From Nitrospirota bacterium (lineage in GTDB: Bacteria > Nitrospirota > Thermodesulfovibrionia > Thermodesulfovibrionales > JdFR-85): a stretch of DNA of 32,431 nucleotides. A model generated the notes under the pieces. That model worked only from the letters and a program-made list of their open reading frames with translations, was not told the origin of the DNA and searched no databases. Shown here piece by piece: positions 233-29,560 of this stretch (position 1 is the stretch's first letter; each line of letters begins with the position of its first letter). The stretch is from assembly GCA_015485235.1 (NCBI GenBank), contig WFTX01000234.1:1-32431 (forward strand). The letters run 5' to 3'. Position numbers and translations under genes: made by a program.

Positions 233-1327
233 TCAGTCTTCCTGTTTCCTTCCTCCAGTTGCAAGCCTGCCGATGCCGTGAGCAACAATGGCCGCTCCGG
301 TTATTGCAGCCAGACCGGCGCCAACCTTGTCGGCAGTCTTCTCAATACCAAACCCTGGAGGCTGGGGAAGCCTTCTGTAAAAGGGAGTCATCTTGTCCCA
401 GAATGCAGGCTCGGAACAGCCTACACATCCATGACCTGCGCCGACAGGCCAGTTGACACCCTCATTCCACTTTATCCGTGGACAGTTATGGAAGGTTTCA
501 GGCCCTTTGCAACCCATCTCATAGAGACACCATCCCTGCCTGTGTCCCTCGTCTCCCCACTGGCGGACGAACTGGCCCGCGTCAAAGTGGGCGCGGCGTT
601 CGCAGTTGTCGTGAATCCTCTTGCCGTAAGCAAAGAGGGGACGGCCGAGTTTGTCGAGAAGGGGGAGGGAACCAAAAGTCAGATAATGTACGACCGTGGC
701 AGTGATGTTCTCCACATTCATGGGGCAGCCGGGGAGGTTTACTACAGTGATACCCGGGACTGCCTCGGAAACACCTACGGCACCTGTAGGATTGGGTGCA
801 GCTGCAGGAATACCACCGTAAGCTGCACAGGTTCCCACGGCGATAGTTGCCAGCGCGTTTCCACAGACTTCCTTGACAATATCGACTGCTGTTCTTCCTC
901 CGATACAGCAATATACCCCTCCGTCCTTGAAGGGGATGGAACCTTCGACTACAGCCAAGTACTTCCCCTTCTGATTCTTCACCACATCAGCAAGGGATTT
1001 CTCGGCCTGGTGCCCTGCTGCTGCCATGATAGTCTCATGATACTCGATGTTCAGGACATCAAGCACCAGTTCTTTCACTGTGGGCTTACTTGCCCTGAGA
1101 AGCGATTCGGTGTTTCCTGCGCAGTCCTGGAACTCGAGCCATACAAGGGTAGGCTTGGCCTTCTTCTCCAGGGCCTCCGCCACTTTTGAAGCAAAAGCAG
1201 GCGGGAGCGCAAGGGTGGCAGTCATTATTGAGCAGAACTTCATGAAGTCACGCCGGCTGAATCCCTTCAGCCTCATGGCCTCATAAATAGTTCCGCCCTC
1301 TCCACCATTTCCGTTACTGGAGCCCAT
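233..1327 (-). CDS. [NiFe]-hydrogenase small subunit, Tat-exported, with a C-terminal hydrophobic anchor (group 1 / uptake type)
   Basis: 364 aa. Twin-arginine signal SRRDFMKFCS, then LVWLEFQDCAGNTES, GTCAAYGGIP, NLPGCP, CERRAHFDAG and GCxGPxTxxNCP...GHGCVGCSEP Fe-S ligand motifs. The C-terminal segment is AGLAAITGAAIVAHGIG. Confidence 0.93.
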   Translation of the reverse strand: MGSSNGNGGEGGTIYEAMRLKGFSRRDFMKFCSIMTATLALPPAFASKVAEALEKKAKPTLVWLEFQDCAGNTESLLRASKPTVKELVLDVLNIEYHETIMAAAGHQAEKSLADVVKNQKGKYLAVVEGSIPFKDGGVYCCIGGRTAVDIVKEVCGNALATIAVGTCAAYGGIPAAAPNPTGAVGVSEAVPGITVVNLPGCPMNVENITATVVHYLTFGSLPLLDKLGRPLFAYGKRIHDNCERRAHFDAGQFVRQWGDEGHRQGWCLYEMGCKGPETFHNCPRIKWNEGVNWPVGAGHGCVGCSEPAFWDKMTPFYRRLPQPPGFGIEKTADKVGAGLAAITGAAIVAHGIGRLATGGRKQED

Positions 1328-1441: not shown

Positions 1442-1645
1442 CAAAAAATCCTTTAAAAACGATATGTAAAAAATATCAAAATAAATTAATAAGCAATTTT
1501 AATGCCACTTAAGCATAGGTATGACAGCTATTAGCCCTGCAAGCTTTGAAGCATAATGTGAGATATGGATGTGTAGAATTGTAATGGGACCTGAGGAGGA
1601 ATGTTACAATTCGTTTGAACACCTCCAAGATGGATACCCCTTCTT

Positions 1646-2770
1646 TCAGACTGAAAGAAGTGCCCTCTGGAAAGATTTTTTTATCTCTTCATGAGAGATG
1701 GGGATGTTGGGGACAGGCTCATTGCCGGGAAGGGCGATGATATGAATAAACCTGGGGCCTTTCTTGCGGGAGGAGAGTGCGGCCCTGATCTCGCCCCTTG
1801 CCGAGACCTTAACCACGTTCCCTATACCGAACCCCCTGGCAACGAGGGAGAGGTCGGTGACAGAACCTGCATGGGTTGGCTGGTCTCCAGTGGAACCGTA
1901 ACTTCCATTGTCTATGGCCAGGATTGTGAGGTTGGGAGGACTGAGATGTGCTATGGTGGCAAGCGTGCCGGGATTCATCAGGAGGCTACCGTCGCCGTCA
2001 ATTACAATAACTTCCCTATCTGTTGTGAGTGAGACACCGAGTCCGATCGGTGTAGCCATCCCCATGCTTCCGAGCATGTAGAAATTGGAGTCCTGATGGC
2101 AGAGGTGATAGAGTTCCTTGGAAGGGACACCCAGGTTGGATATCACGATTTTTCCATTCAGTTGGTCTTTTATTATTTCCAGTATCCTGAACCGTCTGTA
2201 ATAGGGCCGTTTTCTCACGGGGTTTAACGGGCCGGGGTGTACAGGCCTTTTGGAGGGGAAGTGAGGGGACGGCTCTTTACAGCCCTCCCAGACCCTGGGG
2301 CTGAGCAGAAAGGCATGGGTAATCTCTTTTCTGAAAATCCTGGGGAGTCCTCTGTGGATCTTTTCGAGGTCTTCCTGTTTTCCAATGGTGGAATATCCTA
2401 TACCGGCTGCCTTCAGTATGCCCTTCAGTGCCTTTCCCATCGGGAGTTGAGCTGCTATCGCCTCCCTGTATATACCCCGGTGACTTATGAAGAGGGGAAG
2501 GGAAAGACGGTAGAATCCCGTAAGGGAGAGGAGGGCGTTAATCATGTTACCGATTCCGGAGGACTGGAGAAAGATTGCAGGACGGGCACCACCCAGGGCT
2601 ATACCTGCAGATATTCCAACACCTTCCTCTTCTCTCGTAAGGGGAATGAATCCCTTCAACCCAGCAAGAACTGAAAAGAGTCCTTTCATCCTGTCACAGG
2701 GCAGTCCCAGGATATAGTCTATCCCTTCCTGCTCAAGGATACCAATCAGTCTTTTTTCAGGTGTCTGCAT
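1646..2770 (-). CDS. comDE: Fused TPP-dependent sulfopyruvate decarboxylase (ComD-like N-half plus ComE-like C-half); the alternative is phosphonopyruvate decarboxylase
   Basis: 374 aa. The N-half (GIDYILGLPCDRMKGLF...EEEGVGISAGIALGG..PAIFLQSSGIGN) is the TPP pyrimidine-binding fold. The C-half carries the TPP diphosphate motif GSMGMATPIGLG...VIDGDGSLLMNPGTLATI...AIDNGSYGSTG. It overlaps the upstream cysteate-synthase-like gene by 25 nt. No PEP mutase is nearby. Confidence 0.7.
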   Translation of the reverse strand: MQTPEKRLIGILEQEGIDYILGLPCDRMKGLFSVLAGLKGFIPLTREEEGVGISAGIALGGARPAIFLQSSGIGNMINALLSLTGFYRLSLPLFISHRGIYREAIAAQLPMGKALKGILKAAGIGYSTIGKQEDLEKIHRGLPRIFRKEITHAFLLSPRVWEGCKEPSPHFPSKRPVHPGPLNPVRKRPYYRRFRILEIIKDQLNGKIVISNLGVPSKELYHLCHQDSNFYMLGSMGMATPIGLGVSLTTDREVIVIDGDGSLLMNPGTLATIAHLSPPNLTILAIDNGSYGSTGDQPTHAGSVTDLSLVARGFGIGNVVKVSARGEIRAALSSRKKGPRFIHIIALPGNEPVPNIPISHEEIKKSFQRALLSV

Positions 2771-4002
2771 AAAAGTTCTTCAATCTCCTCATCTCTGATG
2801 TCCTTGTTGATAAATATGGGGTCGACTATAAATATCCCCTTGTCCTCTTCAAGCCTCTTTTCCCCACCGCCGGTTATATTGAGAAGCACTGTCTCGTCAG
2901 GTTTAACCGTTCCTTCTGAAACAGCGCGCTTCAGTGCTGCCACGGCAACACCTGCCGCAGGAACGATATCAATTCCTTCTGTTTCTTCAAAGAGTTCCAT
3001 AGACTCAAAGACCTCCTCGTTGGTTATACCGTACATTCTACCAGATGTTGCCTTAAGCGCGTCATAGACTCCGCCCGTAGTGGAATAGGGGGGGTACCTG
3101 TTCGAGAGTACCCTTGTCGTTATCTGCCCGATAAGGGCAGGGTCGAGGTCCTCTTCCGCTATCGTCCTGCTTCCCTTTTCCCAGGCCCTGACCATAGGGG
3201 CAAAGGGGACATTCTGGGCGAGATGAAGAACGGGGAGTTTCTCGCCGAACCTTCCGTCTCTGATGAAACGCTCAGCCATCTCCCAGACTCCTATTGCACC
3301 AGTCCCGCTTCCGACTGCCTGGAAGTAATGATCTGGAAGCCTTTTCATCTTGCTGACCGCCTCGAGGAGGACGATCCCGAGGCCGTCCCGTTTCGCAATG
3401 TTTTTTACACCACCCTCAAAGGGCATTCCAAGCACAGTGGCTATCCTCCGGGCAACATCGATGGAATCCGAGTAGTCACCATCCCTGAGTGCAACCGTAG
3501 GTACACGAATTGACTCCACGAGATACCACATCTCAAAAAGACACATTTTTGGCACTACTATAAGAACGGGGTAGTCAGCCATTACTGAGAGATGGGCAAA
3601 GGCCCTTGCCGTGTTTCCGGCAGAGGCTACAACGAGACCGGTCACGCCGTTTTCCCTTGCATTCTGAAGCACCACCGCAGCCTCAAACTCCTTGAACGTG
3701 CATGTCATGATCCCGCCATCCATCTCTGGCCAGTATCCGTTGAAGGCTATGTAAAGGTACTCAAGCCCCAGGCGGGCCCCGAGCGTCTCGGACCTGTATA
3801 CCACAGGCCCAGGTTGCCTGAAGGAACCTTCATGGACAGGGAGCCAGTTGAAACGCCAGATACCGTCATAGTCAGTCTCCCTGAATTGACTTTCTCGATA
3901 CTCCGTCACAAGGAGCGCGTCAATACAGTGTTCACAGAACGCACAATAGGTGTTTTCCAGAACCTTGTTGCATTTTCTGCACCTGATATCAAAGTGACTC
4001 AT
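2746..4002 (-). CDS. Cysteate synthase-like PLP enzyme (threonine-synthase fold)
   Basis: 418 aa. N-terminal Cys-rich ribbon CRKCNKV..YCAFCEHC. The PLP-lysine segment is TCTFKEFEA followed by VVASAGNTARAFA, which differs from the threonine-synthase NPTGSFKDRG signature. A GSGTGAIG glycine loop is present. The gene is translationally linked to the ComDE-like gene, the same pairing described in Methanosarcinales. Confidence 0.6.
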   Translation of the reverse strand: MSHFDIRCRKCNKVLENTYCAFCEHCIDALLVTEYRESQFRETDYDGIWRFNWLPVHEGSFRQPGPVVYRSETLGARLGLEYLYIAFNGYWPEMDGGIMTCTFKEFEAAVVLQNARENGVTGLVVASAGNTARAFAHLSVMADYPVLIVVPKMCLFEMWYLVESIRVPTVALRDGDYSDSIDVARRIATVLGMPFEGGVKNIAKRDGLGIVLLEAVSKMKRLPDHYFQAVGSGTGAIGVWEMAERFIRDGRFGEKLPVLHLAQNVPFAPMVRAWEKGSRTIAEEDLDPALIGQITTRVLSNRYPPYSTTGGVYDALKATSGRMYGITNEEVFESMELFEETEGIDIVPAAGVAVAALKRAVSEGTVKPDETVLLNITGGGEKRLEEDKGIFIVDPIFINKDIRDEEIEELLCRHLKKD

Positions 4003-4021: not shown

Positions 4022-5221
4022 TCATATTAGTCTGGAGAGCAGCTCCATGATATCAACAATCGGAACCTTGCCTGTATGATCCTTCATTGCCTCGTTAACC
4101 TTCTCGTAACAGGCAGGGCAGCTCAGAACGAGCTTATCAGCACCCTTTTCGCATGCCTCATCTATTGTCAGCCTTCCCATGGCTATTGCATTTTCATGAA
4201 AGATCTTTCTTGCAGCCCCGCCAGCTCCGCAACAGCGGGAGTTCCTCCCATGTCTATCAAATTCCAGTATTTTTGCTCCAGGGATTGCCCTCAGCACTTC
4301 TCTTGGCTCCTCAATCACGCCTACGCCCCTGCTAAGATAGCAGGGGTCATGATATATGATATTCTCGTCAAGTCCATCCACTATCTTTAATTTTCCCTTT
4401 CTTATCGCATCGGCAACATACTGTGTGATATGTACTATCCGGAAGGGCAGGGGGCTTCCATAGAAACGGGGCCAGTCCCTGACCATGAGATTTACACAAC
4501 AGGGACATGAACAGAGGAGTATCCCAACGCCTCTTGAACGGTATGCATCGATTAATCTTTTTACCAGGGACTCAAGCATCTGAAACTGACCCGTTATGAA
4601 GAGGGGGAAACCACAGCAGACTTCGTCCTCAGGTCCGAGCATGGTGAAGGGTTCACCGATAGCTCTGAGGACGAGAAGGTCCCCCTTCACCATCGGTTGG
4701 GCCTGGTACGCCCCTGTACATCCGGCATAGTAGGCAATCTCCGCCTTATTCTTGACGGGAATGCCTTCAGGTATCCAGGGAGAATATCTCTCCGAGGGCG
4801 GCTGGTCGTAGGGGTTACCAGTCCGTCTTATCACTTCGGGCAGGTCGCGCTGGTTCCCTATCGGACCGATTCCCCGTTTCACCATCTCCCTTCGGAGGAG
4901 TGGCCAGAGCCTCTGGGTGTCAATCCCTACAGGACAGATCTCGCCACAGGCACCGCAGGTGGTGCACTCAAAGACCGCCCTTGTGAAGTCCTCGAGGAGT
5001 TTTCTGTCAACTTCTCCGCCAGTAACAAGGGCCTTCAGGCCCTCTGTCCTGTTGATGAACTCCCTGTACATCTTCAACCGCTCCGGTGGTGATATCGCTG
5101 GGTTGTCTGTCACTTCCTGGACAGGACAGACGGAGAGACATTCGCGGCATTCAGTACAGGCCTTTATCTCAAGTATCTCCTTTCTTGAGAGATCCTTTGT
5201 GAAGGGCCTTCTTTCAGTCAT
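4022..5221 (-). CDS. HdrD/DsrK-family Fe-S oxidoreductase (two 4Fe-4S motifs plus two CCG domains)
   Basis: 399 aa. Motifs CTECRECLSVCPV and CTTCGACGEICPV, then CCG-domain motifs VCCGFPLF and RCCGAGG. Its length matches the HdrD type. It overlaps the upstream membrane-protein gene by 8 nt. Confidence 0.85.
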   Translation of the reverse strand: MTERRPFTKDLSRKEILEIKACTECRECLSVCPVQEVTDNPAISPPERLKMYREFINRTEGLKALVTGGEVDRKLLEDFTRAVFECTTCGACGEICPVGIDTQRLWPLLRREMVKRGIGPIGNQRDLPEVIRRTGNPYDQPPSERYSPWIPEGIPVKNKAEIAYYAGCTGAYQAQPMVKGDLLVLRAIGEPFTMLGPEDEVCCGFPLFITGQFQMLESLVKRLIDAYRSRGVGILLCSCPCCVNLMVRDWPRFYGSPLPFRIVHITQYVADAIRKGKLKIVDGLDENIIYHDPCYLSRGVGVIEEPREVLRAIPGAKILEFDRHGRNSRCCGAGGAARKIFHENAIAMGRLTIDEACEKGADKLVLSCPACYEKVNEAMKDHTGKVPIVDIMELLSRLI

Positions 5222-5912
5222 ATGTTGTCTCCCTCCCCGGATAATGAAGCAGTTTCGCTCTTTCTCCCCTTAGTCGTGCAGCGATTATTACGAGGGGGGC
5301 TCCGATAATATGAGAAGGAATATACAACAGAAGCCCGAGAAATAGTAGATAATGGATGATGAAGAGTGTTTCTGGAGGTGGCATAACCGGTCTTAAAGCA
5401 AGAAGGGAGATCATAAAGTGCTTGACTGAGATTATGTCAGGCCTGATCATATACCGCATCAGAACGCCGGTTAGCCCGAGGAAACATATGTGGGTGATCA
5501 GCATGATATTTCTGATAGAGATAAAGTGTTTTCTCTCCCTGTTCATTATCCTTACAAAAAGTATGTAGACAATGGTGAAGGGGAGAAGAATCCCGGCATA
5601 TTTGCCGATACAGACGGTTGTGCTCATCCATGCCGGTGGGGAGTAAAGAATGAACCGCAAGTGTCCGATGAGGGTTAATACAAAGGTGAGATGAAATAGC
5701 CACTCTCCGATCCAGAGGGCCTTGTTTACCTTGAATAGCCGTCCAAGGAAGACGACATCAAGAACTCCTGCAAGGAAAATGCTTAATCTTCCAGCTTCAG
5801 GATGCAGATGGGCCTCCGGAGAGGCCCTGCAGACCAGGATGGCGTTCTGCACCCCCTTGATATATGCTACAAGGAATATGGGGTAGCTGATGTAGGCGAT
5901 GAGAGCCTCCAT
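5214..5912 (-). CDS. Integral membrane di-haem cytochrome b-like subunit (NarI/DsrM/HdrE family)
   Basis: 232 aa with about 5-6 hydrophobic helices. His pairs lie within helices (FHLTFVLTLIGHLR; IIHYLLFLGLLLYIPSHII), as in NarI-type haem b ligation. The gene is translationally coupled to the HdrD-like gene. Confidence 0.65.
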   Translation of the reverse strand: MEALIAYISYPIFLVAYIKGVQNAILVCRASPEAHLHPEAGRLSIFLAGVLDVVFLGRLFKVNKALWIGEWLFHLTFVLTLIGHLRFILYSPPAWMSTTVCIGKYAGILLPFTIVYILFVRIMNRERKHFISIRNIMLITHICFLGLTGVLMRYMIRPDIISVKHFMISLLALRPVMPPPETLFIIHYLLFLGLLLYIPSHIIGAPLVIIAARLRGERAKLLHYPGRETTYD

Positions 5913-5920
5913 TAAAACCC

Positions 5921-6868
5921 TCAGGAGAGCTGGAAGGGACTGTTGAGTGCCTCGTTTCTCATGGCGGACATCAGGGTGTTTTCGAGTAGCATGGCGATGG
6001 TAACAGGGCCCACACCACCGGGGACAGGTGTGATGAATGATGCCTTCTCCTTTACCCCATCAAATTCCACATCACCAACGATCTTCCCGCTCTTCAGAAC
6101 GTTTATGCCAATATCAACTATAACGGCTCCCTCTTTTACCATCTCTCTCGTAATCAGGCCCCTGACACCGGTTGCCGAACATATGATGTCGGCCTGCCGT
6201 GTTATCCTGCCCAGATCGGCTGTCTCCTTGTGGCAGACCGTCACCGTTGCATCCTTGGCAAGAAGCATCATTGAGAGTGGTTTACCTACAGCAAGACTCT
6301 TTCCTATTACTACGGCATGTTTTCCCCTCAGAGGTACGTCATAGTACTCGAGGAGCCTGACAACCCCGTAGGGTGTGCATGGGAGAAAGCCTGTAATGCC
6401 GGAGAGGCGGATGCAAGGATTGCTTTCGGTTTCATTTTTGCTGTCAGACTGAAAGAGCTGGAAAGTTGATTCATCAGCAGATAGCCTCCCGATTGAGAGG
6501 GCGCCGAGGCCGTCAATATCCTTCTCCGGAGAGATCTCGTTTACAACCCGGCGGGCATTAATCCTCGGGGGGAGAGGGAAGAGAACCAGAAGCCCGTTTA
6601 TCCGCTCGTCCCTGTTGATCTGATGGATTGTATTAAGAATTTCATTGATCGAGGCATCCGCAGAAAGTCTGAACTCATGAGTCCGTATCCCCACACGTTT
6701 TGATGCCTTGAGGGTTGATAGGTAATACTGTCTCGACGAGGGGTTGTCTCCAACCAAGAGCAGGGCCAGCCCCACCTCAATCCCTGAATCGTTAAGTCTC
6801 TGTACTTCCGTCCTTACTCTATCCTTTATTTCCTTTGCAAGGGAGATCCCTTCCATCAGGATGGACAT
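5921..6868 (-). CDS. folD: Bifunctional methylene-THF dehydrogenase / methenyl-THF cyclohydrolase, carrying an unusual ~25-aa insertion
   Basis: 315 aa. Motifs LVGDNPSSRQYYLSTLKASKRVGI, EKDIDG, PCTPYGVVRLL, VVIGKSLAVGKPLSMML, VIVDIGIN and ITPVPGGVGPVTIAMLLENT. Confidence 0.9.
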   Translation of the reverse strand: MSILMEGISLAKEIKDRVRTEVQRLNDSGIEVGLALLLVGDNPSSRQYYLSTLKASKRVGIRTHEFRLSADASINEILNTIHQINRDERINGLLVLFPLPPRINARRVVNEISPEKDIDGLGALSIGRLSADESTFQLFQSDSKNETESNPCIRLSGITGFLPCTPYGVVRLLEYYDVPLRGKHAVVIGKSLAVGKPLSMMLLAKDATVTVCHKETADLGRITRQADIICSATGVRGLITREMVKEGAVIVDIGINVLKSGKIVGDVEFDGVKEKASFITPVPGGVGPVTIAMLLENTLMSAMRNEALNSPFQLS

Positions 6869-6926: not shown

Positions 6927-7241
6927 TTACTTTCTCTCAAAAACTATTTTCACATCTTTGGGAAGGGCAAGTCCAGCCTCAATCTCAAGGGCCTTCAGAA
7001 CAGCGGAAGGTACCGGGCATGAGACATGCCGGAGACAGGCAGAGCCTTCCCTGTAAACGGGGTTGTCCAGAATCCTCTTGAAGACATCCATCATATCCAT
7101 GGTCTGGATTTTCTCACCCAGTTTCTCCACCATTTCACACTCCGACTCAATCCTGAGACTGAACTCCTTCTTCCCTGTCTTCTCAACGGTCACCTTTGTC
7201 ATGAGACCGCAGATGCCGGGGTCTATCTCAGCGATAATCAT
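6927..7241 (-). CDS. Small conserved-looking hypothetical protein with 4 Cys
   Basis: 104 aa. It starts 3 nt after the stop of the RACo-type activase. Cysteines occur in GICGL, ESECE, SACLRHVSCP. I recognise no family. Confidence 0.5.
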   Translation of the reverse strand: MIIAEIDPGICGLMTKVTVEKTGKKEFSLRIESECEMVEKLGEKIQTMDMMDVFKRILDNPVYREGSACLRHVSCPVPSAVLKALEIEAGLALPKDVKIVFERK

Positions 7242-15038: not shown

Positions 15039-15400
15039 GAGGTCGAGGTCAAGTTGAGGTCGAGGTTGAGGTCAAGGTTGAGGAAAGCGGGTAGCGTGAA
15101 GGGAACTGTAGAGTGGAAGTGCGGAAGACTAATGGAACACAGATGAACACAGAAAAACGGGATTCACACTGATATAGAAAAGTTTAGCGTGTAGCGTATA
15201 GGTCGATACGACCAGGCGGGTAGTGGGTAGTTTTGAGATTATTCAGGATTTTAATCTGTGTAAATCTGTTTGTTTCTGTGTCATCAGTGTTCTATTGTTT
15301 AGAGATTTGAATTTTGAATTTGTTTAGGATTTAGAGTTTAGGATTTAGGATTTGTTTTAATCAGTGTAAATCCGTCTGTTTCTTTGTTAGTCTGTTTTGG
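15039..15400. repeat. Composite intergenic repeat element made of cascades of short tandem 'words', plus an internal inverted repeat
   Basis: 15039-15083 is about 3.7 copies of a (GAGGTCRAGGTT) unit. GTAGCG-type words follow at 15088-15100 and again at 15183-15230. 15134-15173 (GGAACACAGATGAACACAGAAAAACGGGATTCACACTGAT) is the inverted counterpart of two direct copies at 15253-15293 and 15359-15398 (AATCWGTGTAAATC..TCTGTTTCT..). 15305-15355 is tandem TTTGAATT and TTTAGGAT words. Confidence 0.85.
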
Positions 15401-15547
15401 GGAATTTTTCCGCAATAGCATGGGGAATCTTTCCTCGATTTGCCTTTCCGGTTTACAGATTCTTCAGAACCAGGGTTCTTTGTGTCCTTCTTGTTCTTAG
15501 TGGTTTAATACAAGATATCTGTGAAAACAATGGTGTATAATTTCTGT

Positions 15548-16438
15548 ATGAAGAGTACGATCGTAGCCGGAATGCTTGGTGCTGGGAAGACTACCTTCAT
15601 TTCCAATTATCTCAGGGAGAGAAGGGAGAAGGTAGTCGTTCTTGTGAACGACTTCGGGAAACTTGGTATCGACGGTGAGATCATCTCATCCGACGGATAT
15701 GAGTGCATAGAACTTCCGAGCGGGTGCGTCTGCTGCACCCTTAAGTATGATTTCGTTACAACCATAGGGAAGGTGCGGGATGAACTGTCCCCCGAGCACC
15801 TGATAATAGAGCCCAGCGGTGTTGCCTCCCCGTCGGCAGTGATAGAGGCCCTTGAACTGTCAGGGATAAGGAATGTCTCTGTGGTGCTTGTCGTGGACAT
15901 AAACGACTTTCTGGAAGTTCATGAAGCTGATATGTACGGGAGATTTTTTGAGGACCAGGTACGATATGCCGACCTGGTTCTTCTCAATAAGGCCGACCTT
16001 TCTGACAGTGAGAAGATAGGAAAGTGCAGGGAGATCATTTCAGAGTGGAACCCCCTTGCCCTTATACTCGAGAGTAAGTATGGGAGGATCAGTTCGGAGA
16101 TACCTGAGGGGAGCGAAAAGCGCTTGAACGATCATTCAGGAGGGGATTCCCACATCCACTGTGAAACCATTGCTTTAGTTTTAGGATCCGAACCAATTGA
16201 TTTTAATGTTGTTTCTGCATTCTATAATGATCTGAATGCTTCCAGTTACGGTAAGATTATCAGGGCCAAGGGGCTATTTATAACAGACCGGGGCAATTAC
16301 AGGATGGATATTGCCGGGGGGAGGGTATCGGCTGAACCGTTCAAGGGAGATCTGTATGAGAGCCGCATTGTCCTGATAGGTGAGGAGATTGACGAAGAAG
16401 AGGTGAGGGCGAGGGCTCAGGGGATCAAAGATGCCTGA
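15548..16438 (+). CDS. CobW/HypB/UreG-superfamily (G3E, COG0523-type) metallochaperone GTPase
   Basis: P-loop GMLGAGKTTF, then VNDFG, the metal motif GCVCCTL, IIEPSGVA and the NKADL GTP-specificity motif, followed by a CobW C-terminal domain. The start is uncertain: GTG 15521, ATG 15530 or ATG 15548. None has a clear SD. Confidence 0.85.
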   Translation: MKSTIVAGMLGAGKTTFISNYLRERREKVVVLVNDFGKLGIDGEIISSDGYECIELPSGCVCCTLKYDFVTTIGKVRDELSPEHLIIEPSGVASPSAVIEALELSGIRNVSVVLVVDINDFLEVHEADMYGRFFEDQVRYADLVLLNKADLSDSEKIGKCREIISEWNPLALILESKYGRISSEIPEGSEKRLNDHSGGDSHIHCETIALVLGSEPIDFNVVSAFYNDLNASSYGKIIRAKGLFITDRGNYRMDIAGGRVSAEPFKGDLYESRIVLIGEEIDEEEVRARAQGIKDA

Positions 16439-16596: not shown

Positions 16597-17286
16597 ATGT
16601 CAGAAGAGAAGAAAAGGGGTTTTGAGAAGAGACTGGCTGCCTACGCAGCGGCAGCAGCAGGTGTGATGGCTGTTGCACCTGCTGCAGATGCGGCAATACA
16701 GTATAGTGGCACGCAGAACCTGACAGTAAACTCGTCAAATTCAACTGTTCTAGTTGATCTTAATAATGATGGGACAAATGATTTTTCTTTCACCTACTCT
16801 TCTGATGTGTATGGTTCTCCAGGCATGATAATTAGAACATTAAATGGGAGCTTTATAGGTAATAGCTCTGCCAATTTGGATGCCGCGAATTTATCATCAG
16901 GATATTCTATTCGCTCAAATCTCTCTTCACCTTATGGATGGTGGACTGGCTACGAGCCCCTTGCGGGATCAGGCTCTATTACAGATGGAAGTTTCAACTA
17001 TGATGGTGCCCAGGGCTATATTGGTGTGAGGTTTACGAGTGCGACCTGTAACAACGGGAGTTACCACTACGGCTGGATCCAGTGGAGGACGGATACGAGA
17101 GCAACCCAGGGAACAATCATCGACTGGGCATATGAGGATCAGTGCGATACAGCCATCCTTGCCGGTGCCGGTGCACTACAGCAGCAGGTATCGGTTCCCT
17201 CGCTGAACGAATGGGGGATGCTTGCTCTGATCAGTCTTCTTGCAGGCGGTGGGATGCTCGCCATGAGGAGAAGGCAGGAGGCCTGA
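16597..17286 (+). CDS. Secreted protein with an IPTL-CTERM / PEP-CTERM-like C-terminal sorting signal
   Basis: 229 aa. The N-terminus has an Ala-rich signal region (LAAYAAAAAGVMAVAPAADA). The C-terminus VPSLNEWGMLALISLLAGGGMLAMRRRQEA is motif + TM helix + Arg cluster and matches the IPTLSEWG-type signature. The core contains YIGVRF...HYGWIQW. Confidence 0.65.
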   Translation: MSEEKKRGFEKRLAAYAAAAAGVMAVAPAADAAIQYSGTQNLTVNSSNSTVLVDLNNDGTNDFSFTYSSDVYGSPGMIIRTLNGSFIGNSSANLDAANLSSGYSIRSNLSSPYGWWTGYEPLAGSGSITDGSFNYDGAQGYIGVRFTSATCNNGSYHYGWIQWRTDTRATQGTIIDWAYEDQCDTAILAGAGALQQQVSVPSLNEWGMLALISLLAGGGMLAMRRRQEA

Positions 17287-17321
17287 GATCGCCTGACAGG
17301 CAACAGATTCAGATAAACACG

Positions 17322-17359
17322 ACAGAAGGGGCAGTTTTTATCTGCCCCTTCTGTTTTTA
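17322..17359 (+). terminator. Rho-independent terminator
   Basis: A perfect 13-bp stem, ACAGAAGGGGCAG (17322-17334) with CTGCCCCTTCTGT (17342-17354), a 7-nt loop, then TTTTT. Confidence 0.85.
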
Positions 17360-24955: not shown

Positions 24956-24975
24956 CTGCCAGGACAAAAACGGAA

Positions 24976-28651: not shown

Positions 28652-29560
28652 TCAATAATGGGCATTCCCGGGATGTATCTCCCTTATGAGTCTCAGATCA
28701 AAGACCTCATCTTCGGTGAATTCACGGCCAATATATCCCAGTTCCAGCATCCTCCTTGAAAGAACCATGGTGCAGGAGATATACTCATCCGTGATGGAAG
28801 CACAGTAACGGGGTGATATCCCGATGCTCTTCAGTACGAAATCCCTGTCCACAAACCCCATGGTCCTGGCGATGTCTCCGGCTATCTCTTCAGGTGTGTC
28901 CCTCAGGATATTGGTTCCCTCCTCGTGGAGCCTGAGAAATTCCCTGAGGACCTCCGGTGCTTTGTCGAGAAAATCCTTCTTTACCAGGATACCGTAACTG
29001 GGGTTGTTCGGCCAGAGCCCGGAAGGTTGCCAGATGATTTTGCCCTCGCCGTATTCAATAATCGCCTGGGCAAGGGCCGGTGTCCCGATGGCTGCATCAA
29101 TACTCCCTTTGAGATAGGCCTCCAGTGCTTCATCGGCCCACCTGAAATTGATGACTTCAGTCTTCAGGTTACATCTCTGAAGCATGTCGGAAAGAATGAG
29201 ATCATGTATTGATCCCCTCCCGGGCACGCCAATGGATCTGAATCCTGAGATTACACTGCAGAGGTCGTCAGTCTCTTCAAAGGATAGGCTCTGCCTGGAC
29301 GAGGCAAGGACGGTCCCTTCAATGTGCCCGCCTCCGATACAGACAAGGGGGATCCCCCGGTCCATCCCTATTATCGCCGGAGGCAACCCGATATATGCAA
29401 GGTCTATCTCATCACGTGAAAAGGCATCAACAATCGCAGGCCCTGTACCAAAGAGTTTCCATTCTGTCTGGAATGAGAGGCCTTCAAGGAGGGAAGGTCT
29501 GCTCAGAAACACCATGGATGTATGATAGAGCGTGGAGAGATGTCCTATACGGATGAGCAT
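28652..29560 (-). CDS. SsuA/NMT1/TauA-like substrate-binding-fold protein with no signal peptide (predicted cytoplasmic)
   Basis: 302 aa. The pattern is IRIGHLSTLYHTS...FGTGPAIVDAFSRDEIDLAYIGLPPAII...GGGHIEG, typical of the NitT/TauT-type binding-protein fold. There is no N-terminal hydrophobic signal, and no permease or ATPase genes are adjacent. Confidence 0.55.
   Translation of the reverse strand: MLIRIGHLSTLYHTSMVFLSRPSLLEGLSFQTEWKLFGTGPAIVDAFSRDEIDLAYIGLPPAIIGMDRGIPLVCIGGGHIEGTVLASSRQSLSFEETDDLCSVISGFRSIGVPGRGSIHDLILSDMLQRCNLKTEVINFRWADEALEAYLKGSIDAAIGTPALAQAIIEYGEGKIIWQPSGLWPNNPSYGILVKKDFLDKAPEVLREFLRLHEEGTNILRDTPEEIAGDIARTMGFVDRDFVLKSIGISPRYCASITDEYISCTMVLSRRMLELGYIGREFTEDEVFDLRLIREIHPGNAHY

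What the first reader, a model, noticed from the sequence alone, without database searches (positions are those of the whole stretch)
1646..4002. Methanosarcinales-style cysteate synthase plus fused ComDE pair inside a clearly bacterial locus
Seen: ORF 2746-4002 has the threonine-synthase fold with an N-terminal Cys ribbon. Its PLP-lysine segment is TCTFKEFEA rather than the threonine-synthase PTGSFKDRG type. It overlaps by 25 nt a single-chain TPP enzyme (1646-2770) with a ComD-like N-half and a ComE-like C-half. Established: adjacent cysteate synthase and comDE is the arrangement described for the O-phosphoserine + sulfite -> cysteate -> sulfopyruvate -> sulfoacetaldehyde branch of coenzyme M biosynthesis in Methanosarcinales. 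The known bacterial CoM route (the Xanthobacter type) uses unrelated enzymes. Inference: this bacterium may make CoM by an archaeal-type route. Alternatively it may make another C2/C3 sulfonate such as isethionate, taurine, sulfoacetate or a sulfonolipid head group. The aminotransferase and the sulfoacetaldehyde-to-thiol steps are not in this window.
Basis: partly seen in the sequence, partly recalled or inferred. Interest (0 to 1): 0.8.

Follow-up and report, generated by a model that had tools for sequence, protein, structure and literature searches.

The report
Archaeal-type coenzyme M genes in bacteria
An uncultured sulfate-reducer relative (Nitrospirota) carries the archaeal gene pair that makes the precursor of coenzyme M, placed at the end of a conserved operon of vitamin-B12 methyl-transfer and disulfide-reducing enzymes, which suggests that these bacteria make and use a cofactor thought to be almost confined to methane-producing archaea.

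Summary
ORF 2746-4002 (minus strand) is a cysteate synthase: TIGR03844 scores 490.7 bits against a cutoff of 324.9, the best threonine synthase model 96. ORF 1646-2770 (minus) is a fused ComD+ComE sulfopyruvate decarboxylase. Both halves pass their cutoffs and the phosphonopyruvate decarboxylase model fails its own. The two genes overlap by 25 nt.

The locus is bacterial (Nitrospirota, class Thermodesulfovibrionia, known only from metagenomes). The pair ends a roughly 13-kb operon conserved in order and strand in about 50 independent contigs. It encodes two MtaA-family zinc methyltransferases, an MtrH-like methyltransferase, a corrinoid protein with its activase, and an HdrD-like protein with a membrane cytochrome b.

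Among cysteate synthase loci, ComDE is adjacent only in archaea and in this bacterial clade. Both gene trees place the clade beside archaeal sequences. The archaeal coenzyme M synthase (MMP16) is absent from every bacterial locus. A cytoplasmic sulfonate-binding-fold protein co-localises instead.

Best reading: the pair makes sulfoacetaldehyde, which supplies coenzyme M or a close analogue to a methyl-transfer and disulfide-reductase module. The end product is unproven. I found no paper describing this.

The parts
2746..4002 (-). Cysteate synthase (PLP enzyme; O-phosphoserine + sulfite -> L-cysteate)
   Evidence: TIGR03844 scores 490.7 bits (cutoff 324.9); the best threonine synthase model scores 96 (cutoff 303). 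PDB cysteate synthase 9k3c scores 307.6 bits, the best threonine synthase 59.
3679..3705 (-). PLP-lysine segment TCTFKEFEA (Lys104)
   Evidence: F103-K104-E105 is invariant in 10 relatives.
1646..2770 (-). Fused ComD+ComE sulfopyruvate decarboxylase (TPP enzyme; sulfopyruvate -> sulfoacetaldehyde + CO2)
   Evidence: TIGR03845 scores 166.1 (cutoff 147.95) on aa 6-161. TIGR03846 scores 228.3 (cutoff 221.5) on aa 193-370. Phosphonopyruvate decarboxylase TIGR03297 scores 194.9, below its cutoff of 312.5. The GDG-X26-N motif is at aa 259. It follows cysteate synthase in 28 of 29 informative Nitrospirota loci.
4022..5221 (-). HdrD-like iron-sulfur protein (two ferredoxin-type CX2CX2CX3C motifs plus two CCG domains)
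   Evidence: Pfam CCG scores 85.6 bits over 2 stretches, and Fer4_8 also matches. The best NCBIfam hit is the thiol:fumarate reductase subunit TfrB, 195.9 bits, below cutoff. CCG motifs lie at aa 202 and 330. Present in 23 of 28 informative loci. Close relatives are followed by cysteate synthase in every contig that extends far enough.
5214..5912 (-). Membrane cytochrome b-like partner (NarI/DsrM/HdrE type)
   Evidence: DsrM model scores 51.4 bits, below cutoff. Pfam Nitrate_red_gam gives a weak hit in the L004 orthologue. The protein has 5-6 hydrophobic segments and several His residues. It overlaps the HdrD-like gene by 8 nt. Present in 23 of 28 loci.
5921..6868 (-). FolD (methylene-tetrahydrofolate dehydrogenase/cyclohydrolase). 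In the operon only in the window's own sub-lineage.
   Evidence: Present at this place in only a few relatives: genome-set loci L006, L008 and L032, and metagenome contig L090. A sulfonate-type ABC transporter occupies this place in L004 and L025.
6927..7241 (-). DUF6951 small 4-Cys protein of unknown function
   Evidence: PF22263 scores 109.7 bits. Present in 24 of 26 informative loci.
7245..9218 (-). RACo/AcsV-type reductive activase of corrinoid proteins
   Evidence: AcsV model scores 498 bits, below its cutoff of 800. Pfam Fer2, RACo_linker, Raco_middle and RACo_C_ter all match. Present in 21 of 23 loci at 75-92% identity.
9468..10148 (-). Small QueG/RdhA-like protein with two 4Fe-4S motifs
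   Evidence: RDH model scores 60.8 bits and QueG 52.8, both below cutoff. It overlaps the corrinoid protein gene by 4 nt. Present in 19 of 21 loci.
10145..10834 (-). Corrinoid (B12-binding) methyl-carrier protein
   Evidence: TIGR02370 scores 219.5 bits (cutoff 215.3). Present in 19 of 20 loci at 79-95% identity.
10838..11872 (-). MtaA-family zinc methyltransferase 1 ('MtaA1')
   Evidence: PRK06252 'methylcobalamin:coenzyme M methyltransferase' scores 288.7 (cutoff 244) and TIGR01463 scores 260.1 (cutoff 235.4). PDB MtaA 4ay7 scores 173 bits, with the H-x-C...C zinc ligands kept. Present in 18 of 19 loci. The start at 11872 follows the gene call in L001.
11901..12866 (-). MtrH-like methylcorrinoid:pterin methyltransferase
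   Evidence: NF002142 scores 358.8 bits (cutoff 287). PDB MtrH 8z9u scores 187 bits and D. hafniense methylcorrinoid:tetrahydrofolate methyltransferase 6sj8 scores 139 bits.
12965..13480 (-). CMD/AhpD-like small protein
   Evidence: PF02627 scores 31.6 bits. Present in 11 of 17 informative loci.
13589..14620 (-). MtaA-family zinc methyltransferase 2 ('MtaA2'), more divergent
   Evidence: TIGR01463 scores 197 bits, below its cutoff of 235.4. PDB MtaA 4ay7 scores 108.6 bits, with LLHICG and PGCDI kept.
15004..15019 (-). Candidate sigma-54 promoter (TGGCAT-N5-TTGCT) upstream of the operon
   Evidence: One mismatch to TGGCAC-N5-TTGCW, in an intergenic position. The total count of such matches in the window is not above chance, so this is only a lead.
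28652..29560 (-). 'NMT1-X': cytoplasmic SsuA/TauA-fold protein genetically linked to cysteate synthase-ComDE elsewhere. It lies 25 kb away in this window.
   Evidence: No signal peptide. SsuA_fam scores 80.4 bits, below its cutoff of 163.5. The AlphaFold model has pLDDT 93.8. The best folds are sulfonate/taurine-binding proteins, with TM-scores of 0.77-0.81. Homologues (42-69% identical in pairwise BLAST) lie within a few kb of ComDE in 9 Nitrospirota loci, in L037 and in 5 Methanoregula-type loci.

Best explanation
Shown: ORF 2746-4002 is a cysteate synthase and ORF 1646-2770 is a single-chain ComDE sulfopyruvate decarboxylase. The two genes overlap by 25 nt, which suggests translational coupling.

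Follows from the established functions of these families: together with a housekeeping aspartate-type aminotransferase that is not in the window, they convert O-phosphoserine + sulfite -> cysteate -> sulfopyruvate -> sulfoacetaldehyde.

Shown: in uncultured Thermodesulfovibrionia (Nitrospirota) the pair is the last two genes of a conserved operon of about 13 kb, window 14620 down to 1646 on the minus strand. The operon also encodes:
- two MtaA-family zinc methyltransferases;
- an MtrH-like methylcorrinoid:pterin methyltransferase;
- a corrinoid protein and its RACo activase;
- a small QueG-like Fe-S protein and a DUF6951 protein;
- an HdrD-like protein with two CCG domains, paired with a membrane cytochrome b.

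Inferred: sulfoacetaldehyde is thiolated to coenzyme M (2-mercaptoethanesulfonate) or a close thiol-sulfonate analogue. The enzyme for this step is encoded elsewhere, or is of a new kind. The thiol then serves the operon in two ways. It accepts or donates methyl groups at the zinc site of the MtaA-type enzymes, giving methyl exchange between tetrahydrofolate, the corrinoid protein and the thiol. It is also the substrate or product of the HdrD/cytochrome b quinol:disulfide oxidoreductase. In some relatives an SsuABC-type transporter sits in the same operon, which suggests that the sulfonate can also be imported.

The physiological direction is not known. What makes the disulfide, and what consumes a methyl-thioether in an organism with no known methyl-coenzyme M reductase, is also unknown.
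For: Enzyme identity:
- HMM scores against curated cutoffs and comparison with solved structures.
- The catalytic Lys and the TPP motif are present.
- Natural fusions of the family with PAPS reductase, a sulfite source, and with phosphoglycerate dehydrogenase, a phosphoserine source.

Link to archaea:
- Among 85 fetched loci, ComDE lies next to cysteate synthase only in archaea and in the Nitrospirota clade. It is absent next to the Spirochaetota, Bacteroidales and cyanobacterial genes.
- The cysteate synthase and ComDE trees are congruent. Nitrospirota are monophyletic (bootstrap 100% and 89%) and sister to a Hydrothermarchaeota-labelled sequence (84% and 100%).

Operon:
- Same gene order and strand in the window, L004-L033 and 21 metagenome contigs.
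- Presence among loci long enough to tell: ComDE 28/29, HdrD-like 23/28, DUF6951 24/26, RACo 21/23, corrinoid protein 19/20, MtaA1 18/19.
- Reciprocal test: every close relative (64-75% identity) of the HdrD-like gene whose contig extends downstream is followed by cysteate synthase.

Thiol chemistry:
- MtaA1 passes NCBI's cutoffs for the methylcobalamin:CoM methyltransferase subfamily.
- Both MtaA copies keep the zinc ligands of M. mazei MtaA.
- The HdrD-like protein has two complete CCG motifs, and its best family hit is TfrB, a CoM/CoB-thiol-using enzyme.

Sulfonate:
- SsuABC-type transporter genes are inserted between the HdrD-like gene and cysteate synthase in L004 and L025. L025 has the transporter but no ComDE.
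Against: - No MMP16/ComF or other COG1900 protein is present in the window, in the 10 kb beyond it, or in any related bacterial locus. MMP16 is adjacent in 15 archaeal-type loci. The thiol-forming step is therefore unaccounted for.
- No bacterium is known to have methyl-coenzyme M reductase, so the fate of a methyl-thioether is unexplained.
- The methyltransferase half has the same parts list as Mto/O-demethylase systems, which pass methyl groups to a pterin and need no coenzyme M (PMC8630106).
- MtaA1 fails the strict MtaA equivalog cutoff (254.7 against 400), and MtaA2 fails all cutoffs.
- CCG proteins also serve non-disulfide enzymes. One example is the distant L107 homologue that sits with an FAD oxidase and an aldehyde:ferredoxin oxidoreductase.
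- The linkage is not absolute. Two Nitrospirota loci (L023, L026) carry the pair without the operon, and two (L028, L029) lack the HdrD/cytochrome b genes.
- All sequences come from metagenomes. No organism, transcript or metabolite was examined.
Confidence: 0.5

Rival explanations
1. The pair makes sulfoacetaldehyde for a non-thiol sulfonate such as isethionate, taurine or sulfoacetate, used for example as an osmolyte or a head group. The neighbouring methyltransferase genes form an Mto/O-demethylase-like system that moves methyl groups from a methylated substrate to tetrahydrofolate without coenzyme M. The HdrD/cytochrome b pair is a DsrMK-like electron module. The clustering reflects co-regulation or vertical inheritance, not a shared cofactor.
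For: - The parts list matches the Mto system: two URO-D-family methyltransferases, an MtrH-like enzyme, a corrinoid protein and RACo.
- FolD lies inside the operon in the window's sub-lineage.
- No thiol-forming enzyme is in any bacterial locus.
- L023 and L026 carry the pair alone.
- DsrK and DsrM models give weak hits.
Against: - No sulfoacetaldehyde reductase, aminotransferase or dehydrogenase is in the operon.
- The order and strand of 12 genes are kept while ComDE has diverged to 52-64% identity.
- This HdrD subfamily is always followed by cysteate synthase.
- Both URO-D proteins are far closer to MtaA (173 and 108.6 bits) than to the solved O-demethylase methyltransferase CdmB (no hit, and 28.7 bits).
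- A sulfonate importer is inserted exactly between the HdrD-like gene and cysteate synthase in L004 and L025.
Confidence: 0.25
2. Coenzyme M (or an analogue) is made, but as a low-molecular-weight redox-buffer thiol. The HdrD/cytochrome b pair re-reduces its disulfide from the quinol pool, and the AhpD-like protein uses it against peroxides. The methyltransferases are functionally separate.
For: - An AhpD/CMD-like gene is in the operon, and OsmC-like peroxidase-type genes and a DsrE-like gene lie nearby.
- cbb3 oxidase genes lie on the same contig, which points to oxygen exposure.
- Raising CoM levels protects methanogens from oxidative stress (PMC12713407, title and abstract seen).
Against: - The methyltransferase genes are the most conserved and most constant part of the operon (74-95% identity).
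- L028 and L029 keep the methyltransferases plus the pair but lack HdrD/cytochrome b.
- The CMD-like gene is the least constant member (11 of 17).
Confidence: 0.12
3. The genes are catabolic. They would degrade imported cysteate or sulfolactate through sulfopyruvate and sulfoacetaldehyde to release sulfite as an electron acceptor.
For: - ComDE is used this way in some sulfonate-degrading bacteria (my own knowledge of Roseovarius; not checked here).
- The hosts are relatives of sulfate/sulfite reducers.
- Sulfonate transporters occur in some operons.
Against: - Cysteate synthase is a beta-replacement enzyme that consumes sulfite, as described in PMC9457059.
- No Xsc, IslA or CuyA desulfonating enzyme is in the window or in the annotated flanks I read. 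The CuyA model scores only 18.6 bits on the synthase itself.
Confidence: 0.04
4. Mis-assignment: ORF 2746-4002 is the organism's threonine synthase and ORF 1646-2770 is a phosphonopyruvate decarboxylase of a phosphonate pathway.
For: - Both are the nearest sister families.
- The best solved structure for the decarboxylase is a split putative phosphonopyruvate decarboxylase. No ComDE structure appears among the PDB matches.
Against: - Cysteate synthase scores 490.7 bits, threonine synthase at most 96.
- Solved cysteate synthase scores 307.6 bits, threonine synthase 59.
- The phosphonopyruvate decarboxylase model falls below its cutoff while both ComD and ComE models pass.
- No PEP mutase appears in any annotated flank.
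- The decarboxylase tree mirrors the cysteate synthase tree.
Confidence: 0.02

Closest known systems
Phosphoserine-dependent ('type 2') coenzyme M pathway of Methanosarcinales and Methanomicrobiales (M. acetivorans MA3297 cysteate synthase, MA3298 ComDE, MA3299 MMP16/ComF; PMC12068725)
   Same: The same two enzyme families, adjacent and in the same order. ComDE is fused. Identity to archaeal proteins is 41-52%. The bacterial clade branches beside archaeal sequences in both trees.
   Different: The host is a bacterium. The third gene, MMP16, is adjacent in 15 archaeal-type loci but absent from all bacterial loci. The pair is embedded in a methyltransferase/Hdr-like operon that is not seen next to it in the archaeal loci fetched.
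Methanosarcina HdrDE heterodisulfide reductase with the VhoGAC/VhtGAC H2:quinone-type hydrogenase
   Same: An HdrD-type protein (2 ferredoxin motifs + 2 CCG) with a membrane b-type cytochrome partner. In the window and in L006 a Tat-exported NiFe hydrogenase with its own cytochrome b follows directly.
   Different: No HdrD- or HdrE-specific model scored it. The best hits, TfrB and DsrK/DsrM, are below cutoff. The electron carrier would be a bacterial quinone. No coenzyme B genes and no methyl-coenzyme M reductase are known here. Two related loci lack the pair.
Corrinoid methyltransferase systems: MtaABC/MtbA/MtsAB of methanogens, and the Mto/O-demethylase systems (PMC8630106)
   Same: URO-D/MtaA-family zinc methyltransferases, a corrinoid protein, an MtrH-like pterin methyltransferase and a RACo activase.
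   Different: No substrate-specific MtaB/MttB-type enzyme is present. The system is coupled in one operon to cofactor biosynthesis and an Hdr-like reductase. Whether the acceptor is a thiol, a pterin or both is untested.
Bacteroidota cysteate synthase of sulfonolipid (capnine/sulfobacin) biosynthesis (PMC11211663)
   Same: The same enzyme family in bacteria. It makes cysteate from phosphoserine.
   Different: Those loci (Odoribacter, Bacteroidales, Prolixibacteraceae) have no adjacent ComDE and form a separate branch. Here no cysteate acyltransferase was found in the window.
Bacterial coenzyme M pathway of Xanthobacter autotrophicus Py2 (ComA + XcbB-E; PMC9457059)
   Same: The end product would be the same, if the inference holds.
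   Different: The enzymes and the starting substrate (phosphoenolpyruvate) are unrelated, and the pathway serves aerobic alkene metabolism. No family scan of the window ORFs returned a ComA or an aspartase/fumarase-type (XcbB-like) protein. The other Xcb enzymes were not looked for by name.
DsrMK module of sulfate reducers
   Same: A CCG protein plus a NarI-like cytochrome b that links the quinone pool to a cytoplasmic sulfur-sulfur bond. The hosts are relatives of sulfate reducers.
   Different: Scores lie far below the DsrK and DsrM cutoffs (91 against 400, and 51 against 300). No dsr genes are adjacent. The constant neighbour is cysteate synthase.

Membership tests
Cysteate synthase (TIGR03844, EC 2.5.1.76) | Whole-protein score above the curated equivalog cutoff, and above the sister family threonine synthase | tested here: met
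   490.7 bits against a cutoff of 324.9. The best threonine synthase model scores 96 against a cutoff of 303.
Cysteate synthase (TIGR03844, EC 2.5.1.76) | PLP-binding lysine in the (S/T)C(S/T)FKE segment, aligned with a solved cysteate synthase | tested here: met
   Lys104 in MTCTFKEFEA aligns with STCSFKETEA of 9k3c (307.6 bits) and with the lysine of threonine synthase 2zsj.
Cysteate synthase (TIGR03844, EC 2.5.1.76) | Catalysis of O-phosphoserine + sulfite -> cysteate | not testable with these tools
   Needs an enzyme assay. Indirect support comes from family members fused to PAPS reductase and to phosphoglycerate dehydrogenase.
Sulfopyruvate decarboxylase ComDE (TIGR03845 + TIGR03846, EC 4.1.1.79) | Both the alpha and the beta part above their curated cutoffs | tested here: met
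   Alpha scores 166.1 against 147.95. Beta scores 228.3 against 221.5, which is marginal.
Sulfopyruvate decarboxylase ComDE (TIGR03845 + TIGR03846, EC 4.1.1.79) | Not a phosphonopyruvate decarboxylase: below that model's cutoff and no PEP mutase nearby | tested here: met
   TIGR03297 scores 194.9 against a cutoff of 312.5. No PEP mutase family appears among the called genes of L001, L004 and L005 or among the window ORFs. The rest of the genome was not examined.
Sulfopyruvate decarboxylase ComDE (TIGR03845 + TIGR03846, EC 4.1.1.79) | Thiamine-diphosphate binding motif | tested here: met
   GDG-X26-N at aa 259-288. Pfam TPP_enzyme_C and TPP_enzyme_N both match.
Archaeal type-2 coenzyme M biosynthesis pathway | Cysteate synthase and ComDE present and adjacent | tested here: met
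Archaeal type-2 coenzyme M biosynthesis pathway | Coenzyme M synthase MMP16/ComF (TIGR03287, COG1900 + ferredoxin domain) | tested here: not met
   No hit in any window ORF, in the L001 flank or in any Nitrospirota locus by BLAST with three archaeal MMP16 proteins. It is adjacent in 15 archaeal-type loci. The test covers only about 20-40 kb per genome, so the gene could lie elsewhere.
Archaeal type-2 coenzyme M biosynthesis pathway | Coenzyme M actually produced | not testable with these tools
   Needs metabolite analysis of an organism that carries the operon. All carriers found are MAGs or metagenome contigs.
MtaA/MtbA methylcobamide:coenzyme M methyltransferases | Score above curated family cutoffs | tested here: inconclusive
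   MtaA1 passes the subfamily models (288.7 against 244, and 260.1 against 235.4) but not the MtaA equivalog (254.7 against 400). MtaA2 passes none.
MtaA/MtbA methylcobamide:coenzyme M methyltransferases | Zinc ligands His-x-Cys ... Cys of the thiol-activating site | tested here: met
   MtaA1 has vIHICG and PGCDI. MtaA2 has LLHICG and PGCDI. Both align with HICG and PGCGI of M. mazei MtaA 4ay7. That these are the zinc ligands rests on my knowledge of that structure.
HdrDE heterodisulfide reductase | HdrD architecture: two 4Fe-4S ferredoxin motifs and two CCG domains, with a membrane b-cytochrome partner | tested here: met
   CX2CX2CX3C motifs at aa 22 and 86. CCG motifs at aa 202 and 330, the second fitting C-X35-CC-X36-CXXC. 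The adjacent gene, overlapping by 8 nt, encodes a NarI/DsrM-like membrane protein.
HdrDE heterodisulfide reductase | Reduces CoM-S-S-CoB | not testable with these tools
   Substrate unknown.
Mto / O-demethylase type methyl-X:pterin methyltransferase system (rival filing) | Parts list: URO-D-family MT1, corrinoid protein, MtrH-like MT2, RACo activase | tested here: met
Mto / O-demethylase type methyl-X:pterin methyltransferase system (rival filing) | MT1 belongs to the O-demethylase clade rather than the MtaA/MtbA/MtsA clades | tested here: inconclusive
   The only solved O-demethylase methyltransferase (CdmB, 9rui) gives no hit to MtaA1 and 28.7 bits to MtaA2, against 173 and 108.6 bits to MtaA. 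No MtoB reference sequence was available for a tree.
Sulfonolipid (capnine) pathway | Cysteate synthase accompanied by a cysteate acyltransferase, with no need for ComDE | tested here: not met
   No aminotransferase-class acyltransferase is in the window, and ComDE is present. The Bacteroidales-type loci, which lack ComDE, form a separate branch.

The most novel reading that the evidence does not exclude
A whole clade of uncultured Thermodesulfovibrionia synthesises coenzyme M by the archaeal phosphoserine route. It would finish the pathway with a non-MMP16 enzyme. One candidate is the cytoplasmic SsuA-fold protein that co-localises with the pair in bacteria, in a Hydrothermarchaeota-labelled contig and in Methanoregula. 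The clade would then run a methanogen-like methyl-tetrahydrofolate:corrinoid:CoM methyl transfer, coupled to a membrane-bound quinol:disulfide (HdrDE-type) reductase, in some lineages next to an H2-uptake hydrogenase. That would be a CoM-based methyl/thiol energy or detoxification metabolism in bacteria that have no methyl-coenzyme M reductase.
Probability: 0.3. Interest if true: 0.9.

Novelty: new variant of a known kind. Interest (0 to 1): 0.72.

Why it matters
Coenzyme M is regarded as a hallmark of methane- and alkane-metabolising archaea. The only known bacterial use is in aerobic alkene oxidisers, which make it by unrelated enzymes (PMC9457059, PMC12068725).

A widespread group of anaerobic subsurface and sediment bacteria carrying the archaeal genes would change several things:
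- It would extend the known range of the cofactor. The genes sit in an operon with methanogen-type methyltransferases and a heterodisulfide-reductase-like enzyme.
- It would document transfer of a cofactor pathway between archaea and bacteria.
- It would point to an unrecognised methyl-sulfur metabolism in relatives of sulfate reducers.
- It would complicate the use of mtaA, mtrH, hdrD and com genes as methanogen markers in metagenomes.
- It offers a lead to an alternative last step of coenzyme M synthesis, in organisms that have no MMP16 next to the pair.

Tried and rejected
- Threonine synthase and phosphonopyruvate decarboxylase readings: rejected on model scores, solved-structure comparison and context.
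- RNA features: no tRNA or Rfam family is in the window, so nothing places the organism that way.
- Literature: nine full-text searches used the terms cysteate synthase, comDE, sulfopyruvate decarboxylase, coenzyme M, mtaA/mtrH and corrinoid, in various combinations and together with Nitrospirae, Nitrospirota, Thermodesulfovibrio(nia) or sulfate-reducing. None found a description of this gene pair or operon in these bacteria. Subscription journals are not covered.
- MtaA structure paper: sought in order to check the CoM-binding residues, but not held.
- MMP16 in bacterial loci: BLAST with three archaeal proteins found none.
- In-cluster candidate for the thiol-forming step: none is convincing. 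DUF6951, the QueG-like Fe-S protein and the CMD-like protein have no assignable chemistry.
- DUF362-ferredoxin gene next to NMT1-X in the window: considered as a redox partner, but it is not conserved in other loci.
- Sigma-54 promoter search: the two best matches lie upstream of the operon and of the hydrogenase genes. The overall number of matches is not above chance, so I give it as a lead only.
- L107, a 30%-identical HdrD-like gene next to an SsuABC transporter: it looked like support, but its neighbours (FAD oxidases, aldehyde:ferredoxin oxidoreductase) indicate a different, probably catabolic, system.
- L039 ('Desulfobacteria' MAG): it looked like a second bacterial lineage with MMP16. 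It groups inside ANME-1-type sequences and is probably a mis-binned archaeal contig.
- Tree method: the trees are neighbour-joining with bootstrap only. No maximum-likelihood program or threonine synthase outgroup was available, so the root and the direction of transfer are not established.

Full report

Yes. Two overlapping ORFs lie on the minus strand: 2746-4002 (418 aa) and 1646-2770 (374 aa). They share 25 nt.

The first ORF carries TCTFKEFEA at aa 100-108 (window 3679-3705). Its Lys104 aligns with the lysine in STCSFKETEA of the solved cysteate synthase 9k3c, and with the PLP-lysine in PTGSFKDRG of Aquifex threonine synthase. It has an N-terminal C8-x2-C11 ... C20-x2-C23 cysteine set that is conserved among relatives.

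The second ORF has a ComD-like N-half (aa 6-161) and a ComE-like C-half (aa 193-370), with a GDG-X26-N thiamine-diphosphate motif.

**2. What are the two proteins?**

ORF 2746-4002 scores 490.7 bits on NCBIfam TIGR03844, cysteate synthase (curated cutoff 324.9). The best of six threonine synthase models reaches 96 bits against a cutoff of 303. Against the PDB it scores 307.6 bits to a cysteate synthase (9k3c/9k3o) and 59 bits to the best threonine synthase.

ORF 1646-2770 passes both sulfopyruvate decarboxylase models. Alpha scores 166.1 against 147.95. Beta scores 228.3 against 221.5, a narrow margin. It fails the phosphonopyruvate decarboxylase model (194.9 against 312.5). No PEP mutase was found among the window ORFs or in the annotated flanks of the relatives whose gene lists I read.

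Elsewhere the cysteate synthase family occurs fused to PAPS reductase, which supplies sulfite, and to phosphoglycerate dehydrogenase, which supplies the phosphoserine precursor. Both fusions fit the assigned chemistry.

I take the identities as established at the level sequence can give. The activities themselves were not tested.

**3. Whose genes are they?**

The window is bacterial. It encodes a sigma-54 enhancer-binding protein, a TonB-dependent outer-membrane receptor, two-component regulators and a Tat-exported NiFe hydrogenase.

The identical protein is found on a 65.5-kb metagenome scaffold and in NCBI MAG GCA_027005275.1. Thousands of homologues at about 70% identity come from metagenomes. 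Those that carry a name are called cysteate synthase, nearly all from Nitrospirota/Nitrospirae MAGs.

In a scan of one genome per GTDB species, at least 554 stretches encode a relative. All the loci at 62-78% identity are Nitrospirota, labelled Thermodesulfovibrionia, Thermodesulfovibrionales or Dissulfurispiraceae, apart from one MAG labelled only 'bacterium'. All of them are MAGs. Next come two groups:
- archaea at 44-51% identity: Methanosarcinaceae, ANME-1, Methanoperedens, Methanomicrobiales;
- other bacteria at 41-50%: Spirochaetota, Bacteroidales/Odoribacter, Moorena, Calditrichales, Lentisphaeria, Ktedonobacteraceae.

**4. Which cysteate synthases travel with ComDE?**

I compared the window's proteins with all ORFs of the 85 loci fetched up to that point. 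ComDE lies beside cysteate synthase only in the archaeal loci and in the Nitrospirota clade. None of the Spirochaetota, Bacteroidales or cyanobacterial loci has it. Bacteroidota use cysteate for sulfonolipids (PMC11211663).

I built neighbour-joining trees of cysteate synthase (68 sequences) and ComDE (36 sequences). They are congruent:

| Grouping | Cysteate synthase bootstrap | ComDE bootstrap |
|---|---|---|
| Nitrospirota monophyletic | 100% | 89% |
| Nitrospirota + Hydrothermarchaeota-labelled L037 | 84% | 100% |

This group sits with the archaeal sequences rather than with the other bacteria. That last split has only 60% support, and the tree is unrooted.

The pair was therefore acquired once by this bacterial lineage and has been inherited as a unit. 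The direction of transfer cannot be read from an unrooted tree.

**5.

In the window the pair is the 3' end of a run of 13 closely spaced minus-strand genes, from 14620 down to 1646. In order they are:
- MtaA-family methyltransferase 2;
- a CMD/AhpD-like protein;
- an MtrH-like methyltransferase;
- MtaA-family methyltransferase 1;
- a corrinoid protein;
- a small QueG/RdhA-like Fe-S protein;
- a RACo-type corrinoid activase;
- DUF6951;
- FolD;
- a NarI/DsrM-like cytochrome b;
- an HdrD-like protein with two CCG domains;
- cysteate synthase;
- ComDE.

The same order and strand recur in essentially every Nitrospirota locus whose contig is long enough. Counting only loci that extend far enough to tell:

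| Gene | Present / informative loci |
|---|---|
| ComDE | 28 / 29 |
| HdrD-like | 23 / 28 |
| Cytochrome b | 23 / 28 |
| DUF6951 | 24 / 26 |
| RACo | 21 / 23 |
| Corrinoid protein | 19 / 20 |
| MtaA1 | 18 / 19 |

The methyltransferase proteins are the most conserved members, at 70-95% identity. Cysteate synthase is 62-78% identical and ComDE 52-64%.

I also ran the reciprocal test, a metagenome scan seeded with the HdrD-like protein. It found 21 close relatives at 64-75% identity. In every contig that extends downstream, cysteate synthase follows, and then ComDE where the contig reaches that far.

There are variations:
- FolD is in the operon only in the window's sub-lineage (L006, L008, L032, L090).
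- L004 and L025 carry an SsuABC/TauABC-type sulfonate transporter between the HdrD-like gene and cysteate synthase. L025 lacks ComDE.
- L028 and L029 lack the HdrD/cytochrome b genes.
- L023 and L026 have the pair alone, in L026 beside riboflavin genes.

**6. What the neighbours are**

MtaA1 passes NCBI's cutoffs for the 'methylcobalamin:coenzyme M methyltransferase' subfamily (288.7 against 244) and for the MtaA/CmuA family (260.1 against 235.4). It does not pass the strict Methanosarcina MtaA equivalog. MtaA2 is more divergent and passes none.

Both find M. mazei MtaA as their best solved structure, at 173 and 108.6 bits. Both keep its H-x-C ... C motif, which I know as the zinc site that activates the thiol of coenzyme M. 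The solved O-demethylase methyltransferase CdmB gives no hit to MtaA1 and 28.7 bits to MtaA2.

The MtrH-like protein resembles MtrH and the Desulfitobacterium methylcorrinoid:tetrahydrofolate methyltransferase.

The HdrD-like protein has two CX2CX2CX3C motifs and two CCG motifs. The second fits the C-X35-CC-X36-CXXC signature. Its best family hit is TfrB, the thiol:fumarate reductase subunit that uses CoM and CoB thiols, at 195.9 bits and below cutoff. DsrK scores 91 bits.

The partner gene encodes a membrane protein with 5-6 hydrophobic segments, several histidines and weak NarI/DsrM similarity.

**7. The missing last step**

In archaea, sulfoacetaldehyde is converted to coenzyme M by MMP16/ComF. 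The homocysteine enzyme L-ASST, also a COG1900 protein, can partly substitute when sulfide is present (PMC12068725).

MMP16 scores above 490 bits on TIGR03287 in the six representative archaeal proteins that I tested. Homologues of them lie next to cysteate synthase in 15 archaeal-type loci. No homologue occurs in the window, in the 10 kb beyond it, or in any Nitrospirota locus. It is also not adjacent in the Methanoregula, Methanoperedens or L037 loci.

The one other window gene that recurs near the pair elsewhere is 28652-29560, which I call NMT1-X. Its properties are:
- about 305 aa, with no signal peptide;
- a distant relative of SsuA/TauA sulfonate-binding proteins (80 bits, cutoff 163.5);
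- a confident model (pLDDT 93.8) whose best structural matches are sulfonate- and taurine-binding proteins, with TM-scores of 0.77-0.81.

Homologues, 42-69% identical in pairwise BLAST, lie within a few kb of ComDE in 9 Nitrospirota loci. In L037 the gene overlaps the ComDE stop. Homologues also occur in five Methanoregula-type loci, which are archaeal loci without an adjacent MMP16.

Whether NMT1-X is a sensor, a carrier or an enzyme is unknown. It is the best lead for a further pathway component.

**8. How it most likely works**

Shown: the enzyme families and the conserved genetic linkage.

Follows from family knowledge: phosphoserine + sulfite -> cysteate -> (housekeeping aminotransferase) sulfopyruvate -> sulfoacetaldehyde.

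Inferred: the aldehyde is thiolated to coenzyme M or a close analogue, which serves the operon in two ways. It is the methyl acceptor or donor of the MtaA-type enzymes, working through the corrinoid protein and, via the MtrH-like enzyme, with tetrahydrofolate. It is also the thiol/disulfide substrate of the HdrD/cytochrome b reductase, which connects to the quinone pool. In the window's lineage that pool is fed by an adjacent H2-uptake hydrogenase.

The sulfonate importer inserted in the operon in two relatives, one of which lacks ComDE, fits a cofactor that can be either made or salvaged.

I give this reading about 0.5. What consumes a methyl-thioether, and what generates a disulfide, without methyl-coenzyme M reductase is unexplained.

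**9. Rivals**

(a) The methyltransferase half has the same parts list as the Mto/O-demethylase systems, which transfer methyl groups to a pterin and do not use coenzyme M (PMC8630106). On this reading the pair makes another sulfonate and the clustering is incidental. I give it 0.25. Against it stand the reciprocal linkage with the HdrD subfamily, the MtaA-like zinc sites, the in-operon sulfonate importer, and the lack of any sulfoacetaldehyde reductase or aminotransferase.

(b) Coenzyme M serves as a redox-buffer thiol, with HdrD/cytochrome b as its disulfide reductase (0.12).

(c) A catabolic role (0.04). Cysteate synthase consumes sulfite, and no desulfonating enzyme is present.

(d) Mis-assignment as threonine synthase and phosphonopyruvate decarboxylase (0.02).

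**10. Comparison with what is known, and novelty**

The pair belongs to the archaeal type-2 coenzyme M route by every sequence criterion. The pathway as a whole fails one defining test in the DNA available: no MMP16. The end product is untested. I therefore do not file it as 'the archaeal CoM pathway' but as a bacterial variant of it.

The known bacterial pathway (Xanthobacter) is unrelated. Databases already label these proteins 'cysteate synthase' in Nitrospirota MAGs. One survey notes a cysteate synthase gene in a bacterial MAG and proposes taurine synthesis (PMC12019592).

I found no paper that describes the pair with ComDE, or the operon, in these bacteria. Within the limits of an open-access library, the operon-level finding appears new.

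**11. Limits**

- All sequences are metagenomic.
- No whole genome could be scanned, so a separate thrC, COG1900 proteins, coenzyme B genes and alkyl-CoM reductases remain unchecked.
- The trees are distance-based and unrooted.
- The L037 contig is labelled archaeal but carries bacterial-looking signalling genes, so its assignment is uncertain.

Noticed in passing
window 28652-29560 (-); also L004 12372-13331, L026 12418-13386, L037 12368-13279, L054 6327-7271: A cytoplasmic SsuA/TauA-fold protein with no signal peptide and strongly conserved motifs (RIGHLSTxYHT, AGGHxEGT, GSIHD, NPSYGI). It co-localises with cysteate synthase-ComDE in Nitrospirota, in a Hydrothermarchaeota-labelled contig and in Methanoregula-type loci, which are loci without an adjacent MMP16. 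It is a possible missing component of the pathway: a binder, sensor or enzyme.
   Followed up: partly
L001 13824-15533 (just beyond window position 1); L003 5214; L006 12701: The NiFe hydrogenase large subunit downstream of the operon has in-frame TGA codons at both cysteine positions of the N-terminal RxCGxCxxxH nickel-binding motif (RI-TGA-GV-TGA-TTVH). The same is seen in a second species (L006). This suggests two selenocysteines at a site where, to my knowledge, NiFeSe hydrogenases normally keep cysteine. Gene callers split the gene into 59 + 498 aa.
   Followed up: partly
window 15004-15019 (-) and 1492-1507 (-); regulator at 18418-19920 (+): Two one-mismatch sigma-54 promoter-like sites (TGGCAT-N5-TTGCT) lie upstream of the methyltransferase operon and of the hydrogenase genes. 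A GAF-domain sigma-54 enhancer-binding protein is encoded nearby. Short direct repeats (GACCTC units) lie just upstream of the first site, at 15030-15080. The overall match count is not above chance.
   Followed up: partly
window 233-1327 (-) and L001 12676-17083: A Tat-exported NiFe hydrogenase small subunit, the large subunit, a Ni_hydr_CYTB cytochrome b and maturation genes follow ComDE after a 318-nt gap. They are conserved at this place in only one other species (L006). Together with the HdrD/cytochrome b pair this resembles the Methanosarcina Vho-HdrDE arrangement.
   Followed up: partly
window 15521-16438 (+); L029 7868-8845; L054 8541-9368: A CobW/HypB-type metallochaperone GTPase is transcribed divergently from the operon. 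CobW-family genes also lie near cysteate synthase-ComDE in L029 and in Methanoregula loci. It may deliver zinc or cobalt to the methyltransferase system.
   Followed up: no
window 14586-15008 (-): The ORF between the candidate promoter and the first methyltransferase gene gives a weak receiver-domain match (18.8 bits, below cutoff), with Glu where the phospho-acceptor Asp is expected. It is not conserved in other loci. It may be a degenerate receiver or not a gene at all.
   Followed up: partly
window 17139-17486 (-): A short fragment matches only positions 180-222 of methylenetetrahydrofolate reductase (GDFAITRMFFDN...ILPGIMP). It looks like a remnant of a metF gene next to the operon region.
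   Followed up: partly
window 17515-18060 (-), 20186-20716 (+), 20717-21121 (+): Two OsmC-related proteins match the 'OsmC-related (seleno)protein' model below its cutoff, and a DsrE/DsrF-like sulfur-relay protein is adjacent. The three flank the sigma-54 regulator. Their relation to the operon is unknown.
   Followed up: no
window 22913-27302 (+): A TonB-dependent receptor, a YfiR-like periplasmic protein (TOL_0244/TOL_0243 families, below cutoff) and a CHASE8 histidine kinase form a separate module.
   Followed up: no
P0152, P0169, P0138 (representative proteins): Natural fusions of cysteate synthase with PAPS/APS reductase and with phosphoglycerate dehydrogenase exist. One protein carries an MMP16 C-terminal fragment in front of cysteate synthase.
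   Followed up: partly
L039 (MAG labelled Desulfobacteria): Its cysteate synthase and adjacent MMP16 group inside ANME-1/Methanophagales sequences (75% identity for MMP16). The contig is probably archaeal and mis-binned.
   Followed up: partly
L107 2833-13744: A 30%-identical HdrD-like gene sits next to an SsuABC-type transporter, two FAD-linked oxidases, a second CCG protein and an aldehyde:ferredoxin oxidoreductase. This is probably a sulfonate-catabolic cluster of a different kind.
   Followed up: partly
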